A stretch of DNA of 64,000 bases. It comes from Bryobacterales bacterium (GTDB lineage Bacteria; Acidobacteriota; Terriglobia; Bryobacterales; Bryobacteraceae). A program made the position numbers and the translations under genes. Under the pieces are notes generated by a model. That model worked only from the letters and a program-made list of their open reading frames with translations, was not told where the DNA came from and did not search any database. Shown here one piece after another: positions 32,121-37,979 of this stretch (position 1 is its first letter; the number at the start of each line of letters is the position of its first letter). Where the stretch lies: assembly GCA_003170295.1 (NCBI GenBank), contig PNAJ01000148.1, forward strand, positions 3,946-67,945, written 5' to 3'.

Positions 32121-32438
32121 TTACTCGAAAACGAGCTTCGTGGTCGTCCCGGCGATAGTGATGTCTTTGATCTGGTGGTTGTCGCCGTCCTTGTAGCCGA
32201 TGGTGGTGTACAGGTATTTGGAGTTTGACGTCTCCACCTTCACGGTGGCTTCGACGCTGGTTTTCCCCTGTTTTACGATGGCTTTGTTGTCTTTGATCTC
32301 GAGCTTCGCCTCGCCGACTTTCAACGTCGTACCGTTCACGACGGTGGGTTGGTAGAAATTCAGGTTGAAGTTGCTGGCGGCGCTGGCCACGGCCAACACC
32401 ATCACGGAAACGAGCAATAACGTGCCCTTAATCATCAT
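32121..32438 (-). CDS. Small secreted hypothetical protein
   Basis: Signal peptide MMIKGTLLLVSVMVLAVASA. Beta-rich 80-aa body. Confidence 0.55.
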   Translation of the reverse strand: MMIKGTLLLVSVMVLAVASAASNFNLNFYQPTVVNGTTLKVGEAKLEIKDNKAIVKQGKTSVEATVKVETSNSKYLYTTIGYKDGDNHQIKDITIAGTTTKLVFE

Positions 32439-32650: not shown

Positions 32651-32803
32651 TTAGCTGGTCTTGGTGGTCTTGGTCTTGGTGGTCTTGGTCTTTCCGGTCT
32701 TCTTCGACTTGGTGGTGTCGGTCGTCTTCTCCTGCGCGAAAGCATAGCTGGCGGCGCCGAGGACGAGCGAAAGGCCGAGCATCGTGGTCATGATCTTTTT
32801 CAT
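32651..32803 (-). CDS. Small secreted Lys/Thr-rich peptide (50 aa, below the ORF-track cutoff)
   Basis: AAGGAGAAA lies 7 nt before the ATG. Translation is MKKIMTTMLGLSLVLGAASYAFAQEKTTDTTKSKKTGKTKTTKTKTTKTS. The coding repeats are GGTCTTGGT-type. Confidence 0.45.
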   Translation of the reverse strand: MKKIMTTMLGLSLVLGAASYAFAQEKTTDTTKSKKTGKTKTTKTKTTKTS

Positions 32804-33015
32804 AGGTGTGTTTCTCCTTGATTATGTCGACGACTCAAGGCCGTCTTGCAGAACTATCATTGCAATTGGACATGAAACCACCCTTAAAGGGCGATTAAAA
32901 TGGCTTCATTGGCGATGAGTGACAGGTCCGGTATCGTCGTCAACTTGTTTACTTGCAATAAAATAGATTGTTGCGGACTGCTCGAAATTAGAATGCTTTT
33001 CTATGCTGAAGCAGA

Positions 33016-33186
33016 ATGAAGCGTGAAGAATTGGCTAAAAGGCTCGCCCAGAAGACTGGAGTGTCGGACTCAGCCGCTCGGGACGAAGTGGATGAACTGG
33101 TGCATAACATCCTTTACAGGCTGCGGCGGGGGCAGGCGGTGAAGCTGCCTGGAGTGGGCAAACTGGTCCCGAAGCTGCACCGATGA
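33016..33186 (+). CDS. HU/IHF-like N-terminal-domain protein (56 aa, unannotated in ORF track)
   Basis: MKREELAKRLAQKTGVSDSAARDEVDELVHNILYRLRRGQAVKLPGVGKL resembles HU helices 1-2 plus the first strand. ATGA overlap with the next gene. Confidence 0.5.
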   Translation: MKREELAKRLAQKTGVSDSAARDEVDELVHNILYRLRRGQAVKLPGVGKLVPKLHR

Positions 33187-33752
33187 GCCTGGCGCGGGGG
33201 CTGATCTTTGAGATTGTTCGAAAATCGCTCGATGCGGGGCAGGCGGTCGAGATCGAAGGGCTCGGGCGGTTTCGCGCGTCGGCGCAGGGTTACCGGTTCG
33301 ATCCGGAGACGCAGCCTACCGTTTTTGTGGCGTATGCGGTGGAGGACCTGGCGATCGCGCGGCGGCTCGCTGACGCGCTGCGCGCCGCTGGCTGTTCGCC
33401 TTGGCTCGACAAGGACCGTCTGATGCCGGGGCAGAACTGGACGGAATCGTTCAATCGGGCGATTGCGGACGCAGATGCGTTCGTGGCGTGCTTTTCACAG
33501 CGATCGGTCTCAAAGAGAGGCGAGTTCCAAAGCGAATTGCGCCAGGCGATGGAGTGCGCGGAGCGGAGACCACTCGACGATGTGTTCCTGCTGCCGGTCA
33601 GACTGGAGCGATGCGTGGTGCCTTCGCAGATCGCGGACCGGGTGCAGTACGTCGATTTGTTCCCGGATTGGGAGCGCGGGGTGAAGCGACTGGTGCGGTC
33701 GATACGCCGCGCGGCACGGCGCCGGATTTGCACCCAATTCAGTCCAGCTTGA
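33183..33752 (+). CDS. HU-like N-terminal segment fused to a TIR domain
   Basis: IVRKSLDAGQAVEIEGLGRF is followed by the TIR blocks VFVAYAVED, PWLDKD..PGQNW and AFVACFSQRSVSKRGEFQSEL, which include the conserved Glu position. Confidence 0.75.
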   Translation: MSLARGLIFEIVRKSLDAGQAVEIEGLGRFRASAQGYRFDPETQPTVFVAYAVEDLAIARRLADALRAAGCSPWLDKDRLMPGQNWTESFNRAIADADAFVACFSQRSVSKRGEFQSELRQAMECAERRPLDDVFLLPVRLERCVVPSQIADRVQYVDLFPDWERGVKRLVRSIRRAARRRICTQFSPA

Positions 33753-35970
33753 GTATCTGGAAGACATTGCTGTAATCGTCGGTCCAGGCGCGGAAGTTCT
33801 TTTTCGTCTTGGCTGGCTGGATGTCGGCTTTGCTGAAAGCGCTGTCTTCGAAAATGGCGGTATCGGACGTCAGCAGCACCCAGGTGGAGGCGGAAAGATA
33901 GGGAGCTTCATCGCCATCGTCAGCAACGGTCATGGCTTGTTTCGAGAAAAACGCGGAGCCGCCCGCGCAGACGGGCTCAAGATCGAGATATCGATTGGAG
34001 ATGTGCAGCGCTAGAATGCCGTTCGGTTTTAGATGCCGGAAATAGACGGCGAACGCCTCGCGCGTGAGCAGGTGGACGGGAATGGCATCACTTGAGAAGG
34101 CATCGACGGCGAGAAGGTCGAGTTGCAGACTGTCCATCCGCTCCATAGTGAGACGCGCGTCGCCCATGAGAATGCGTTTGTCGGCGGGCGAATGTGGATA
34201 GAACGTGAATTCGGTCTGGGCGAGTTTCTCGACTAGCGGATTGATTTCGAAGACGCGATAAAAATCGCCGACGCGGCCGTAGTTGGATAGAACTCCCGCG
34301 CCGAGTCCGATGACGCCGACGCGCACTGGTCCGCGCTTCTGAACCGCGCGAATCGCCCGGCCGACGCCGGAGTCTTCGCCGTAATACGACGTGGTCTTGT
34401 ACCGTAACGGCTCGTCGAGGATCTGAGAACCGTGGTTGATGGTGCCATGGAGCAGGGTTCGCTCACTGTACTCATCGTCGCTTTTCGACTCATCGTCCTT
34501 GACGTGGAGCACGCCGTAGAAATTGCGCGCCGCTAAGCGATATCCTTTCTCGTTATCGCGTTCTTTTCGAGCGAGGAAGCCCAGGAGCAGGCCGACGCCG
34601 AGCAGCAAGGCCACACGCATCGCCGATCGCCCAATCTTGTGCCCGGTGCCGAATAACATTACCAGCGCGCCTAGGACGGAGCACACTGCAACCGCCAAGG
34701 CTTGCTGGTAAGGCGCGGAACCGATCTTCACGGGCAAAACGAACGCGGCGATCACGCCGCCCAAAGAGACCACCATAAACAGGTACGCGAGAAATCGCGG
34801 AGGGCGCTTGAAGAAACCATCCCACATCACCAGCGCGCCGAGCATCGTGCACGCGGCGATCGCCAGGGGAAGCTCGAGATTTGACGGGAACACTCGGGGA
34901 GCGATCAAGGCGACGAAGATACCACCTAGTGCGCCTCCGAGCGAGACCATCAAGTAGAACAGCGTCAGATATTGCGGCGCGGGGCGGCGGCGGGCCAGTT
35001 CGCCGTGACATAGCATGCAACACAAAAAAAGGCCGCCGGAGAACACAGGAATAAGAATCTTGATGTGGATGTTGCCGGAGTCCTCATACAGGTCGCGGGA
35101 CATGTAGTAGAAGATGGGCACCAGCAGAACGAACATCACGCCGCGGTGATAAATCTTGTCGCTCTCAAAGGCCAGCATGAACGTGGCGAGATAGAGGGCC
35201 AGGGGCAGCACCCAAAGAAGGGGAATCGGGGCCACGTTTTGGCTCAGGTGCGTGGTGATGGAGACCAACAGAACGGATGCGACGGCCGCGAGGCTGACCC
35301 AGAGAGCTAGATCCTGGAGGCGCGGGCGGAGGGCGGGCGGCCTGTCCCCTCCCTCACGGTCAGGGTTCGGTACAAGCGCTTCCTGCGGTCGCGGCTCGGT
35401 ACTCCGCCAGGCGGCCAGAGTACAAACGAGCGCGAAGGCTACGTATCCGACACTCCATGAGTAGGCTTGATAGCGCGAGGTTAATCGAGGCTCGACCAGA
35501 AACGGGAAGCTGACCAGGGCCAGCATCGATCCAAAATTCGACAGCGCGAACAGGCGATAGGGCATGCCGTTTCCGGAGCGCCGCACATACCAGGCTTGCA
35601 ATAAAGGACTGGTAGAGGAAAGCAGGAAATAGGGCAGGCCGATGGTCGCGGTCAGGAGCAGCAGAATACGCAGCGTGGGGTCGCCTGATTCAGACGGCTT
35701 CCAGGTCTCCGAAGGCAAGATGGGAAGCAGGGCACAACTGGCCAGCAGCAGAGCGACGTGCGTCACCATCTGCTGCTTGGATTTCAGGAACCGGATGGAG
35801 CAGTGCGCGTAGGCGTATCCGGCGAGCAGCACGAGCTGAAAAAACAGCATCGCGGCGCTCCAGACGGTGGCCGATCCTCCGAACCAGGGCAGAATGATCT
35901 TGGCGATCAGCGGTTGCACCTGAAAAAGCAGGAAGGCGCTTAGGAAGATGGTGACGGCGTAGATGAGCAT
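33739..35970 (-). CDS. Fused polytopic membrane domain / spermidine-synthase-like methyltransferase-fold protein
   Basis: About 480 aa of TM helices. The C-terminal VIGLGAGV...FEINP...DAFSSDAIPVHLLT.EAF block is typical of SpeE-like folds. Confidence 0.85.
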   Translation of the reverse strand: MLIYAVTIFLSAFLLFQVQPLIAKIILPWFGGSATVWSAAMLFFQLVLLAGYAYAHCSIRFLKSKQQMVTHVALLLASCALLPILPSETWKPSESGDPTLRILLLLTATIGLPYFLLSSTSPLLQAWYVRRSGNGMPYRLFALSNFGSMLALVSFPFLVEPRLTSRYQAYSWSVGYVAFALVCTLAAWRSTEPRPQEALVPNPDREGGDRPPALRPRLQDLALWVSLAAVASVLLVSITTHLSQNVAPIPLLWVLPLALYLATFMLAFESDKIYHRGVMFVLLVPIFYYMSRDLYEDSGNIHIKILIPVFSGGLFLCCMLCHGELARRRPAPQYLTLFYLMVSLGGALGGIFVALIAPRVFPSNLELPLAIAACTMLGALVMWDGFFKRPPRFLAYLFMVVSLGGVIAAFVLPVKIGSAPYQQALAVAVCSVLGALVMLFGTGHKIGRSAMRVALLLGVGLLLGFLARKERDNEKGYRLAARNFYGVLHVKDDESKSDDEYSERTLLHGTINHGSQILDEPLRYKTTSYYGEDSGVGRAIRAVQKRGPVRVGVIGLGAGVLSNYGRVGDFYRVFEINPLVEKLAQTEFTFYPHSPADKRILMGDARLTMERMDSLQLDLLAVDAFSSDAIPVHLLTREAFAVYFRHLKPNGILALHISNRYLDLEPVCAGGSAFFSKQAMTVADDGDEAPYLSASTWVLLTSDTAIFEDSAFSKADIQPAKTKKNFRAWTDDYSNVFQILKLD

Positions 35971-37979
35971 TTATTGGAGGATCTGAACGATATTACTGTA
36001 ATCGTCGGTCCAGCCGCGGAAACCCGGCTTACGTTGCAGTTTGCTGACGGCGAAATGGTCCTGAAAATTCGCGTGTTCAAAAAGTGCGGGAGCGCGGGAG
36101 ATTAAGATCCATGTCGACGGCGAATAGTAATTCTCGTCCTCGCCGGCGTCATCGATCACGATTCCACTAAAACCGTTTGCTGCTGCCGCGTCGGCGACCA
36201 CCGGCGCCAGATCCAGATAGCGATTGGTAATGTTGATGGCGAGAACCCCATTCGGGTTCAGATGGCGGAGGTACGTCCGGTAGGCCTCCGCTGCGAGAAG
36301 ATGGACTGGGACGGCATCGCTCGAAAAGGCGTCCATGGCGAGAAGATCCAGATGCTCGGCGGGCATGCTCTCAAGCACCAGCCGGCCGTCGCCCAGGAAG
36401 AGGCGCTTTTCGGCGGGACAAGCGTTCCAGAATCCGAACTCGGATTGTGCGATTGCCACGACCAGTGGATTGATCTCGTAGTAATGCAAGGTGTCGCCCG
36501 CGCGAGCCAGAGTCGCGGTGACGCCCGCTCCCAGGCCGAGGACGCCGATACGAAGGGGGCCGCGCTCGCCCAGCGCGCGAAGGGCTCGGTTGATACCGGA
36601 GCCGCTGCCGAAATACGACGTCGGGATGCGATCGCCGCCAGGGCGCAGCAATTGAGTACCGTGATTGATAGTGCCGTGAATCAGCACGCGCTGCGCCGGC
36701 GAGTGCTTGCCTGGTGCGTCATCCCGTACTCGCAGCACTCCGTAGAAATTGCGCGCGGAGAGGGTATATTCGCGGGACTCCCGAACATGGTTCTGAATCA
36801 GGTAACCCGCGAAGGCGAGGATTGCTAGCGCGGTCGCGACATGGAAGAGCCGCCTGAAAGGGCGGCTGCCGCCAATATTGGCGGCCCCACAAGACACCAG
36901 CGCGGCGCACAGCACCATTCCCGCGGGCAGCTCGATATATGAGTTGAACAAACGCGGAGCAGCCAGTGCGACGAACGTTCCACCTAGCGCGCCGCCGAGC
37001 GAGACCATCAAATAAAACTGCGTCAGATATCGAGGATGGGGCCTCCGGCGCGCAAGCTCACCGTGGCAGACCATGCAACATACGAAGAGCGCTGCGCAGA
37101 GTGCGGGAATGAGTCTTGTAACATAGGCATCGCTCTGATACGTCGCGATAAAACCAGGAGCGGCAGAAAAATGGCGCGGTTATAGAACCGATCGCTCTCG
37201 AAACAGAGAATAAAGCTGAGCAGATAGAGACTCAGAGGCGCCACCCAGAGCAGCGGAATCGGGGCGACATTCTGAGTCAGATGACTGGTGACCGCGAGCA
37301 ACAGAATAGAAGCGCAGGCGGAGAGGCCGATCCACAACATGCGCTGGGAGAGTCCCGGAGGCGATGCGGGGCCGGCGGTGGAAGGCTCCGTAGGCTGAGC
37401 GCCCACTCGGCTGCGCCACGCCACGATCAAGCACACGACTGCAAATCCGCCGTATGCAACGGACCAAATGAGGGCTTGCCTTGAGAGGGCCAGGCGCGGT
37501 TCGATCACGAACGGATAACTCAAGAGCGCGAGCATCGATCCAAAGTTTGAGAGCGCGAAGAGACGATAGGGAATCGCGCCTTCGTGCGCTCGAAGATACC
37601 AGGCTTGCAGCAGAGGACTGGTGGCCGAAAGGAGCGCGTAGGGCAATCCGACGGTTGCGCCGAGCAGAAGAAGAATGCGCAGTGTGGGATCGCCCGCGCC
37701 CGATGGTTTCCACGCGGCGGAGGGAATAATCGGCAGTGTGGCGAGGCTCGCGATCAGCAGCGAGCCATGCGTCCAAAATTGCTGGGCCGGCTTCAAATAG
37801 TGGATGATGCAATGCGCGTAAAGATAACCTGCAAGCAAGAGCAGTTGAAAGAAGAGAAGCGCCGCGCTCCACACCGCCGCGGATCCACCGAACCAGGGGA
37901 GAATGAATTTTGCTATGAGTGGCTGGACTTGGAAAAGCAGAAATGCGCTGAGAAAAATAGTCGCGGCGTAAAGCGGCAT
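35971..37979 (-). pseudogene. Tandem paralogue of the fused membrane/spermidine-synthase-like gene, split by a 1-nt frameshift
   Basis: Two ORFs (37979-37023 and 37074-35971) align colinearly with the neighbour. The frames switch at a T4 run (plus-strand A4, 37150-37153). One extra T would restore ..LLVFIATYQSDAYVTRLIP.. Confidence 0.7.
36848..36890 (-). repeat. REP family 3 unit embedded in-frame inside the paralogue coding sequence
   Basis: AGCCGCCTGAAAGGGCGGCTGCCGCCAATATTGGCGGCCCCAC is translated as ..CGAANIGGSRPFRRLF.. Confidence 0.85.

What the first reader, a model, noticed from the sequence alone, without database searches (positions are those of the whole stretch)
33016..33752. Unannotated HU-like mini-ORF translationally coupled to an HU-like/TIR fusion protein
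**Seen in sequence.**
- A 56-aa ORF below the track cutoff resembles HU helices 1-2 and ends with GQAVKLPGVGKL.
- Its TGA overlaps the ATG of a 189-aa ORF.
- The larger ORF starts with a second HU-like segment (GQAVEIEGLGRF) and continues into a TIR domain (VFVAYAVED, PWLDKD, FVACFSQRSVSKRGEFQSEL) that retains the Glu at the position used by NAD-cleaving TIRs.
- The pair follows an unusually AT-rich 200-bp spacer.

**Established knowledge.** Bacterial TIR domains frequently act as NADases in antiphage systems.

**Inference.** This may be a two-gene DNA-associated TIR effector module. No SIR2, STING, Macro or other known partner gene is adjacent.
Basis: partly seen in the sequence, partly recalled or inferred. 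Interest (0 to 1): 0.65.

Follow-up and report, generated by a model that had tools for sequence, protein, structure and literature searches.

The report
Split HU-like / TIR gene pair
A tiny gene for the front half of a bacterial histone-like (HU) protein sits directly before, and overlaps, a gene that joins a second HU-like fragment to a TIR (NAD-cleaving type) domain; the pair is real and is kept next to housekeeping genes in at least 561 species of one soil Acidobacteria order, which does not look like a typical mobile anti-phage system.

Summary
ORF1 (33016-33186, 56 aa) is the N-terminal part of an HU protein (alpha1-alpha2-beta1). ORF2 (33183-33752, 189 aa) has a degenerate HU-like alpha-beta3 module followed by a TIR domain. 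The two overlap by ATGA.

In 82 of 82 non-redundant related loci the small gene lies directly upstream. It is never fused. The junction is ATGA/GTGA in 54 of 82 loci and occurs in all three relative frames, so these are two coupled cistrons, not a frameshifted gene. The invariant Glu118 aligns with catalytic Glu77 of SPARTA TIR-APAZ.

The anti-phage reading is weakly supported. At least 561 species-representative genomes carry the pair, almost all Bryobacterales. Its neighbours are housekeeping genes (spermidine-synthase-like, uvrC, comEC). It diverges about as fast as those neighbours. It has no phage or close plasmid relatives, no partner gene, and no system-level PADLOC match.

The HU parts lack the DNA-clamping arms, so DNA binding is unproven. 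ORF1 is, however, strongly basic.

The most likely reading is a lineage-fixed heteromeric complex in which ORF1's helices complete ORF2's partial HU body, positioning or regulating a probably active TIR NADase. The heterodimer, the enzyme activity and the biological role are inferred. Public pipelines already call the homologues "HU family DNA-binding protein" and "TIR domain-containing protein", but I found no description of the pairing.

The parts
32804..33015 (.). Divergent intergenic region between the minus-strand K/T-rich peptide gene and ORF1. It is the likely promoter region of the pair, with sigma-70-like matches at 32872-32901 and 32937-32964 on the + strand.
   Evidence: GC is 42-47% here against 60-66% in the pair. 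Two promoter-like sites were found against 0.5 expected. These are consensus matches only, not shown to function.
33016..33186 (+). ORF1: a 56-aa truncated HU protein (alpha1 res 3-14, alpha2 res 18-37, beta1 res 42-50) with a 6-residue basic tail. It lacks the beta-arm, beta3 and alpha3.
   Evidence: Pfam Bac_DNA_binding 1-52/90, E 5e-8. Family profile against HU-beta 1-64, E 3.5e-10. AF2 model pLDDT 70; all top Foldseek hits are HU/IHF, TM about 0.7, rmsd about 2.1 A. Present in 82/82 loci with a coding-type conservation pattern, median dN/dS 0.45.
33183..33186 (+). ATGA stop/start overlap of ORF1 and ORF2.
   Evidence: Seen in the sequence. The same -4 overlap (ATGA or GTGA) occurs in 54/82 loci, and 73/82 junctions lie within -17..+4 nt. 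Only 24-30% of starts have an SD-like motif against 12% background. Coupling is inferred, not shown.
33183..33317 (+). ORF2 residues 1-45: a degenerate HU-like module with one helix (res 3-17, equivalent to the second half of HU alpha2) and three short strands (22-24, 28-33, 36-41). There is no alpha1 and no extended arm.
   Evidence: hhalign ORF1 26-54 against ORF2 6-34, probability 95.7%, E 9e-9. Weak hits to HU_rel TIGR01201 (E 0.0012) and HU-CCDC81_bac_2 (E 0.036). Secondary structure from the AF2 model. G19, G26 and G28 are invariant.
33321..33695 (+). ORF2 residues 47-171: the TIR domain.
   Evidence: TIR_2 E 6e-27, 94.9 bits against a cut-off of 28. Foldseek top hits are SPARTA TIR-APAZ, SARM1 TIR, PdTIR and RUN1, probability 1.00. 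The mean top-residue frequency is 0.73 across 82 orthologues.
33534..33536 (+). Codon GAA for Glu118, the putative catalytic glutamate.
   Evidence: Invariant in 82/82. Aligns to Glu77 of CrtSPARTA TIR-APAZ (8z92_E) in a profile alignment spanning the whole TIR domain. E77A abolishes NADase activity (PMC9097488).

Best explanation
This is a two-cistron operon, inherited vertically in Bryobacterales. It encodes a heteromeric 'split HU' module carrying a TIR enzyme. ORF1 supplies the HU alpha1-alpha2 helical hairpin (plus beta1 and, in most relatives, a basic disordered tail). ORF2 supplies a half alpha2 and a three-stranded sheet, followed by a TIR domain with an intact NADase-type active site. 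The stop/start overlap favours co-translation and co-assembly. I infer that ORF1's helices pack against ORF2's single N-terminal helix and sheet to complete an HU-type dimer body. That body would set where and how TIR domains come together, either on the nucleoid through the basic surfaces or through protein-protein contacts as proposed for arm-less HU-CCDC81 domains. TIR NADases need self-association to become active, so ORF1 would act as the assembly or regulatory subunit. Shown: the two genes, their domain identities, their universal co-occurrence, the junction pattern, the invariant Glu, the taxonomic range and the genomic contexts. Inferred: the heterodimer, DNA or nucleoid association, NAD+ cleavage, and the physiological role. 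The role is more likely a lineage-fixed stress, signalling or immunity function than a mobile defence cassette.
For: ORF1 is upstream of ORF2 in 82/82 non-redundant loci and is never fused. The junction is ATGA/GTGA in 54/82 and occurs in all three relative frames. ORF1 is an HU N-terminal part. The ORF2 N-terminus is homologous to ORF1 alpha2-beta1. The two parts complement each other: ORF1 always keeps alpha1-alpha2, even in the most divergent relatives that lose beta1, while ORF2 always keeps one helix plus strands. ORF1 and ORF2 identities co-vary (Spearman 0.49-0.71). The TIR fold and invariant Glu118, equivalent to SPARTA Glu77, are established. The ORF1 core has a median net charge of +5, and its R/K/P/G-rich tail is +3 or more in 68/82. 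Precedent: bacterial single-HU CCDC81-clade proteins with an operonic, more classical HU partner are predicted to heterodimerise (PMC5499826). At least 561 species genomes carry a relative, nearly all Bryobacterales. Neighbours are housekeeping genes. ORF2 median identity of 0.55-0.67 is similar to that of its neighbours at 0.62-0.72. There are no phage hits and only TIR-only plasmid hits at 30-41% identity.
Against: The heterodimer therefore rests on complementarity, coupling and precedent. ORF2's HU-like module could equally form homodimers. Neither part has the HU DNA-binding arm, and the window's own ORF1 tail is only 6 residues, so DNA binding may be absent. The dN/dS values (0.45 and 0.30) are near synonymous saturation (dS about 1.3) and are only rough. 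The co-variation of ORF1 and ORF2 is confounded by shared phylogeny. Both AF2 models have only moderate confidence (pLDDT about 70). A conserved Glu does not prove NADase activity.
Confidence: 0.55

Rival explanations
1. It is an abortive-infection anti-phage module. The HU-like pair senses foreign or altered DNA, clusters the TIR domains, and NAD+ depletion (or a TIR-made signal) stops the infected cell.
For: The TIR has an invariant catalytic-type Glu. Its closest PADLOC and PDB relatives are defence TIRs, namely SPARTA TIR-APAZ, TIR-SAVED and ThsB, at domain level. The small basic HU-like partner could bind nucleic acid. Many bacterial TIR proteins are defence effectors (established knowledge).
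Against: There is no system-level PADLOC hit, and the matches cover only the TIR domain. No partner gene recurs in all loci. The pair is order-wide and apparently vertically inherited, in housekeeping neighbourhoods and at housekeeping-like divergence. No integrases, transposases or other defence genes were seen in the flanks. There are no relatives in phages and none close on plasmids. The HU arms needed for classical DNA clamping are absent.
Confidence: 0.22
2. It is a type II toxin-antitoxin-like pair. ORF1 is a small DNA-binding antitoxin that neutralises and autoregulates a TIR NADase toxin.
For: A small upstream gene overlaps a downstream enzyme with toxic potential by 4 nt. ORF1 has a DNA-binding-family fold plus a disordered tail in most relatives. 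NAD-degrading toxins exist in TA systems (established knowledge, e.g. RES-Xre and MbcTA).
Against: TA loci are typically patchy, multi-copy and mobile. This one is single-copy in the window, syntenic and spread across an order. The ORF1 tail is not conserved in sequence and is almost absent (3-6 residues) in the window's clade, so it cannot be a specific toxin-binding segment. No plasmid copies were found.
Confidence: 0.13
3. The TIR is non-enzymatic. The pair is a structural nucleoid- or envelope-associated scaffold in which the TIR domain serves only as a protein-protein interaction module, as in receptor and adaptor TIRs.
For: Arm-less HU-CCDC81-type domains were proposed to mediate tethering through protein contacts (PMC5499826). 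The core-like distribution fits a structural role.
Against: The Glu at the NADase catalytic position, together with the surrounding beta-A and BB-loop signature residues, is invariant over 82 orthologues. That is hard to explain without catalysis. The best structural matches include active NADase TIRs.
Confidence: 0.1

Closest known systems
Bacterial single-HU-domain members of the HU-CCDC81 clade with an operonic classical-HU partner (Burroughs et al. 2017, PMC5499826)
   Same: One more classical HU-like protein is encoded next to a protein whose HU domain has a truncated beta-hairpin, and a heterodimer is predicted. ORF1 and ORF2 both give sub-threshold hits to HU-CCDC81_bac_2.
   Different: The output domain here is a cytoplasmic TIR, not a membrane or peptidoglycan anchor. 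The paper never mentions TIR. ORF1 is itself truncated to about 50 HU residues. ORF2 also lacks alpha1. Scores are below the Pfam gathering cut-off (25.8 and 14.4 bits against 35).
HU/IHF nucleoid proteins (Pfam PF00216; e.g. E. coli HU-beta, 2o97_B)
   Same: ORF1 aligns from residue 1 of HU through alpha1, alpha2 and beta1, and the predicted fold superposes at about 2.1 A.
   Different: The DNA-wrapping beta-arm, beta3 and alpha3 (HU residues about 53-90) are missing. ORF1 is encoded as an obligate neighbour of a TIR gene rather than as a stand-alone nucleoid protein.
SPARTA TIR-APAZ and other NADase TIR domains (SARM1, PdTIR, AbTIR)
   Same: Same TIR fold. The profile alignment spans the whole domain, with Glu118 on catalytic Glu77.
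   Different: There is no APAZ domain, no Argonaute partner and no sensor domain of any described system. The N-terminal module is HU-like. Sequence identity is only about 20%.
Thoeris ThsB / other TIR-only defence proteins
   Same: It is a short protein dominated by one TIR domain and has weak PADLOC ThsB hits (E 1e-3).
   Different: No ThsA (SIR2 or Macro-SLOG) partner is adjacent. The distribution is vertical and order-wide, not patchy.

Membership tests
HU/IHF superfamily (PF00216 Bac_DNA_binding), ORF1 | Significant sequence match to the family profile | tested here: met
   33.5 bits against a gathering cut-off of 22.4, E 5e-8. Family profile against HU-beta E 3.5e-10.
HU/IHF superfamily (PF00216 Bac_DNA_binding), ORF1 | Complete fold: alpha1-alpha2-beta1-beta2(arm)-beta3-alpha3, about 90 residues | tested here: not met
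   The match covers only profile positions 1-52 of 90. The protein ends at residue 56, and the model shows H-H-E-E only.
HU/IHF superfamily (PF00216 Bac_DNA_binding), ORF1 | Binds and bends DNA as a dimer | not testable with these tools
   The only evidence is indirect: net charge of about +5 for the core and basic tails in 68/82 relatives.
HU-CCDC81 clade (PF18175 HU-CCDC81_bac_2), ORF1 and ORF2 N-terminus | Profile match above the Pfam gathering score | tested here: not met
   ORF1 scores 25.8 bits and ORF2 14.4 bits, against a cut-off of 35. Some orthologues carry precomputed weak PF18175 hits.
HU-CCDC81 clade (PF18175 HU-CCDC81_bac_2), ORF1 and ORF2 N-terminus | Truncated tip of the beta-hairpin, and two HU units acting as a dimer (tandem, or single plus an operonic HU partner) | tested here: met
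   ORF2 has a tight turn between strands 28-33 and 36-41. An operonic HU-like partner is present in 82/82 loci. The feature is as described in PMC5499826.
HU-CCDC81 clade (PF18175 HU-CCDC81_bac_2), ORF1 and ORF2 N-terminus | Bacterial architecture with a membrane or cell-wall anchoring region | tested here: not met
   ORF2 carries a TIR domain and no other Pfam domain.
TIR domain (PF13676 TIR_2), ORF2 | Profile match above the gathering score | tested here: met
   94.9 bits against a cut-off of 28, E 6e-27, covering profile positions 1-122 of 122.
TIR domain (PF13676 TIR_2), ORF2 | Flavodoxin-like TIR fold | tested here: met
   The AF2 model (pLDDT 70.5) has its best 50 PDB matches almost all to TIR domains, probability 1.00.
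NADase-type TIR | Catalytic glutamate at the start of alpha-C | tested here: met
   E118 is invariant in 82/82 and aligns with CrtSPARTA Glu77, whose E77A mutant is inactive. The alignment E-values are weak (0.002-0.009) but the alignment spans the full domain.
NADase-type TIR | NAD+ hydrolase or cyclase activity | not testable with these tools
   This needs an enzyme assay.
Known TIR defence systems (Thoeris, SPARTA, CBASS/Pycsar-TIR, retron-TIR, TIR-SAVED) | Presence of the system's partner or sensor (ThsA, short pAgo plus APAZ, cyclase, RT, SAVED) | tested here: not met
   PADLOC and NCBIfam hits are confined to the TIR domain. Neighbours are cyd, spermidine-synthase-like, uvrC, comEC, TPR and SDR genes. 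No neighbour is shared by all loci.
Known TIR defence systems (Thoeris, SPARTA, CBASS/Pycsar-TIR, retron-TIR, TIR-SAVED) | Patchy, island-associated, horizontally mobile distribution | tested here: not met
   At least 561 species genomes of essentially one order carry it. Synteny blocks with housekeeping genes are conserved. No phage relatives and no close plasmid relatives were found.
Type II toxin-antitoxin module | Small upstream DNA-binding antitoxin overlapping a downstream toxin gene | tested here: inconclusive
   The gene layout fits. Toxicity and neutralisation are untested. The ORF1 tail is unconserved and nearly absent in the window's clade.
Type II toxin-antitoxin module | Sporadic, multi-copy, mobile-element-linked occurrence | tested here: not met
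   There is a single copy in the 64-kb window, and the occurrence is order-wide and syntenic.

The most novel reading that the evidence does not exclude
The pair is a chromosomally fixed, nucleoid-bound TIR enzyme. A split HU heterodimer, made of ORF1 helices and the ORF2 sheet, would place TIR domains on DNA so that DNA state (damage, foreign DNA or compaction) controls TIR clustering and hence NAD+ cleavage or nucleotide-signal production. That would be a housekeeping-grade link between chromatin state and NAD signalling in Bryobacterales. It may have been tied ancestrally to uvrC, which lies just downstream in the more divergent half of the family.
Probability: 0.15. Interest if true: 0.8.

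Novelty: new variant of a known kind. Interest (0 to 1): 0.5.

Why it matters
Bacterial TIR domains are known almost entirely as effectors of mobile, patchily distributed immune systems. A TIR with an intact active site that is fixed across a whole order, at housekeeping loci, and obligately paired with a truncated HU protein would be a different evolutionary regime. It could be a domesticated immune module or a non-immune NAD-linked function. It also adds an output domain (TIR) and a 'split' two-gene form to the arm-less HU-like modules described in 2017. And it gives a small, tractable two-protein system (56 + 189 aa) for asking how an accessory subunit controls TIR self-association. As it stands the case is purely computational, and the components themselves are well-known domains.

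Tried and rejected
1. Frameshifted single gene or programmed frameshift: rejected. ORF2 homologues are uniformly about 185-200 aa. The stop between the genes is kept in 82/82 loci. The relative frame varies (0, +1 and +2), including in-frame TAG-ATG junctions.

2. Natural HU-HU-TIR fusions: not found. I looked among the top 120 of 360 ORF1-profile hits and in the exhaustive ORF2-profile search. The longer proteins covering the N-terminus turned out to be TIR joined to TPR, GAF, REC-MerR or ParA-like domains, or chimeric fragments.

4. A constant third gene: none. The spermidine-synthase-like neighbour is present in only 32/81 loci, uvrC in 22, a TPR protein in 17 and comEC in 13.

5. Vertical-inheritance test by correlating ORF2 identity with neighbour identity: only moderate support (Spearman 0.52 for SpmS, 0.47 for ComEC, 0.19 for UvrC). 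It is consistent but not decisive, and the SpmS paralogues may be mixed.

6. Shine-Dalgarno analysis to support termination-reinitiation: uninformative, at 24-30% against a 12% background for both genes.

7. First literature query: wasted by word-start matching on 'tir'. Later queries found no paper with both 'TIR domain' and 'HU domain'.

8. The terminator-like hairpin inside ORF2 (33463-33486): no more frequent than in shuffles, so ignored.

Full report
**1. Observation.**
- ORF1 is 33016-33186 (+), 56 aa: MKREELAKRLAQKTGVSDSAARDEVDELVHNILYRLRRGQAVKLPGVGKLVPKLHR.
- Its TGA overlaps the ATG of ORF2 (33183-33752, 189 aa) as ATGA.
- ORF2 contains GQAVEIEGLGRF, VFVAYAVED, PWLDKD and FVACFSQRSVSKRGEFQSEL.
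- The 212-nt spacer upstream (32804-33015) is 42-47% GC, against about 59% for the window and 60-66% in the two genes.
- The spacer lies between divergently transcribed genes and holds two sigma-70-like matches on the + strand, against 0.5 expected. This is what a divergent promoter region normally looks like, so I do not treat it as unusual.

**2. Domain identities.**
- ORF1 matches Pfam Bac_DNA_binding (HU) above the curated cut-off, but only over profile positions 1-52 of 90 (E 5e-8).
- A profile of the ORF1 family aligns to E. coli HU-beta from residue 1 to 64 (E 3.5e-10).
- The AF2 model (pLDDT 70) has helices 3-14 and 18-37 and two short strands. Every top PDB fold match is an HU or IHF chain (TM about 0.7, rmsd about 2.1 A over about 50 residues).
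- ORF1 is therefore the N-terminal alpha1-alpha2-beta1 part of HU. It lacks the DNA-embracing arm, beta3 and alpha3.
- ORF2 residues 47-171 match TIR_2 end to end (E 6e-27). Its model (pLDDT 70.5) matches SPARTA TIR-APAZ, SARM1, PdTIR and RUN1 TIR domains.
- ORF2 residues 1-45 form one helix and three short strands. They give only weak HU hits on their own.
- A profile-profile comparison aligns ORF1 residues 26-54 with ORF2 residues 6-34 at 95.7% probability, E 9e-9.
- So ORF2 starts with a second, more degenerate copy of the same module. It lacks alpha1 and has a tight turn where HU has its arm.

**3. Active site.**
- In a family-profile alignment that spans the whole TIR domain, the Glu of FQSEL (E118; codon 33534-33536) falls on Glu77 of CrtSPARTA TIR-APAZ.
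- The E77A mutant of that protein has no NADase activity (PMC9097488).
- E118 is invariant in 82 of 82 orthologues. So are F48, A50, Y51 and E54 (beta-A), and W74, G83, Q84 and W86 (the BB-loop region).
- This supports a catalytically competent TIR but does not prove it.

**4. Is the small ORF a real, conserved partner?** Yes.
- ORF2 has more than 1000 database relatives. The closest are a uniform 185-200 aa.
- In four lineages looked up individually, an HU-like small gene lies directly upstream. One of these the gene caller had missed.
Almost all are Bryobacterales, Bryobacteraceae, Solibacteraceae or 'Terriglobia' MAGs.
- Across the 82 non-redundant loci in hand, an ORF1 homologue of 53-101 aa is present upstream in 82 of 82 (E 1e-7 to 1e-34).
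- It is never fused to ORF2.
- The junction is ATGA or GTGA in 54 of 82, and 73 of 82 fall within -17 to +4 nt.
- The relative frame takes all three values, including TAG-ATG in frame. This excludes a frameshifted pseudogene or a programmed frameshift.
- ORF1 shows a protein-type conservation pattern: A15 and A30 of the alignment invariant, and the Asp, Gly and Pro-Gly positions near-invariant.
- Median dN/dS is 0.45 for ORF1 and 0.30 for ORF2. Synonymous sites are close to saturation, so these values are rough.
- ORF1 identity tracks ORF2 identity (Spearman 0.49-0.71).
- Public pipelines already call these small genes 'HU family DNA-binding protein'. None of the 120 listed ORF1-family hits carries a TIR domain.

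**5. Shape of the family.**
- An exhaustive profile search returned 42,649 TIR proteins. Only about two dozen 50%-identity clusters cover the HU-like N-terminus.
- The longer proteins that seemed to cover it have unrelated N-terminal domains.
- In the more divergent relatives, ORF1 extends into a beta2-like 'LPGLGTFxPGxxxxF' segment (18 of 82).
- In the window's clade, ORF1 is cut down to a 3-6 residue tail.
- In the most divergent members (L091, L092), ORF1 keeps alpha1-alpha2 but loses beta1.
- The constant parts are therefore ORF1's helical hairpin and ORF2's helix plus sheet, and these two parts complement each other.
- ORF1 is basic. Its core has a median net charge of +5. Its tail has a median length of 17 residues, is rich in R/K/P/G, and carries +3 or more in 68 of 82.

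**6. Genomic context.** No third gene travels with the pair.
- Spermidine-synthase-like membrane proteins lie downstream and convergent in 32 of 81 loci, including the window.
- uvrC lies about 400-450 nt downstream on the same strand in 22 loci, plus L091 and L092.
- A TPR lipoprotein is present in 17 loci and comEC in 13. Elsewhere the neighbours include cyd genes, an SDR and a site-2-protease-like protein.
- I saw no integrases, transposases or recognised defence genes in the flanks.
- ORF2 diverges about as fast as its housekeeping neighbours (median pairwise identity 0.55-0.67 against 0.62-0.72). Its divergence correlates moderately with theirs.
- There are no relatives in the phage collection. 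On plasmids there are only TIR-only matches at 30-41% identity.
- PADLOC and NCBIfam hits are confined to the TIR domain of larger proteins.
- The window holds a single copy.

**7. Interpretation.**
- The gene pair, its domain make-up and its conservation are established.
- The most economical mechanism is a heteromer in which ORF1's alpha1-alpha2 completes the incomplete HU body of ORF2.
- This mirrors the predicted heterodimers of single-HU CCDC81-clade proteins with their operonic classical-HU partners (PMC5499826). Here the output domain is a TIR, which that paper never mentions.
- TIR NADases are activated by self-association (stated in the abstract of 10.1101/2023.09.23.559129). A small subunit that sets the geometry or location of the N-terminal module is therefore a plausible regulator.
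This step is inference.
- DNA binding is uncertain. The arms are missing, but the proteins are basic.
- The distribution argues against a standard mobile defence cassette or a TA module. It fits a lineage-fixed function, which could still be a domesticated immune system.

**8. Novelty and score.**
- The domains are familiar and the homologues are already annotated by name.
- I found no description of an HU-TIR pairing. The family is also absent as a system from PADLOC 2.0.
- I class it as a new variant of known kinds: a TIR effector with a new accessory module, and an arm-less HU heterodimer with a new output.
- Interest is moderate at 0.5. The finding is solidly real and oddly core-like for a TIR, but its function is wholly inferred.

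Noticed in passing
window 35971-37979 (-): Two overlapping minus-strand ORFs (35971-37074, 367 aa; 37023-37979, 318 aa) together correspond to the second ~670-688-aa spermidine-synthase-like membrane paralogue, which is intact in related loci (L002, L008). In this window the gene appears split by a frameshift, either as a pseudogene or through a sequencing error.
   Followed up: partly
window 32651-32803 (-); DNA repeat 32656-32729: A 50-aa ORF with a signal-peptide-like N-terminus and a Lys/Thr-rich repeat tail (KTGKTKTTKTKTTKTS) is encoded by a 15/24-nt tandem repeat. It is conserved divergently upstream of the HU/TIR pair in 28 of 81 related loci. Its function is unknown.
   Followed up: partly
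window 33739-33752: The 3' end of ORF2 overlaps the 3' end of the convergent 743-aa spermidine-synthase-like gene (33739-35970, -) by 14 nt, so no room is left for a terminator between them.
   Followed up: no
L068, L088 and 20 other loci; L091 4364-5845; L092 4118-5851: In the more divergent half of the family, uvrC (the GIY-YIG excinuclease) lies about 400-450 nt downstream of the pair on the same strand. This could be plain synteny or an ancestral link to DNA repair.
   Followed up: partly
L005 11957-12573 (+): A SIR2-family (PF02146) gene lies about 5.4 kb downstream of the pair in this one locus only. It is not adjacent and does not recur, so it is probably a housekeeping sirtuin and not a Thoeris-like partner.
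   Followed up: no
L062, L069, L070, L073, L077, L087-L089: In one subclade ORF1 and ORF2 are in the same reading frame, separated only by a TAG or TAA stop followed 0-12 nt later by ATG. I did not examine whether stop-codon readthrough could ever yield a fused product.
   Followed up: no
L030, L031, L036, L058, L064 (record titles): A few MAGs that carry the pair are labelled Bordetella, proteobacterium or Rhodospirillales, although their loci look like the Bryobacterales ones. These are probably mislabelled or contaminated bins.
   Followed up: no
window 32121-32438 (-): A 105-aa ORF with a signal-peptide-like start and no Pfam family on record is conserved upstream in 11 of 81 loci, between the cyd operon and the K/T-rich peptide gene.
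   Followed up: no
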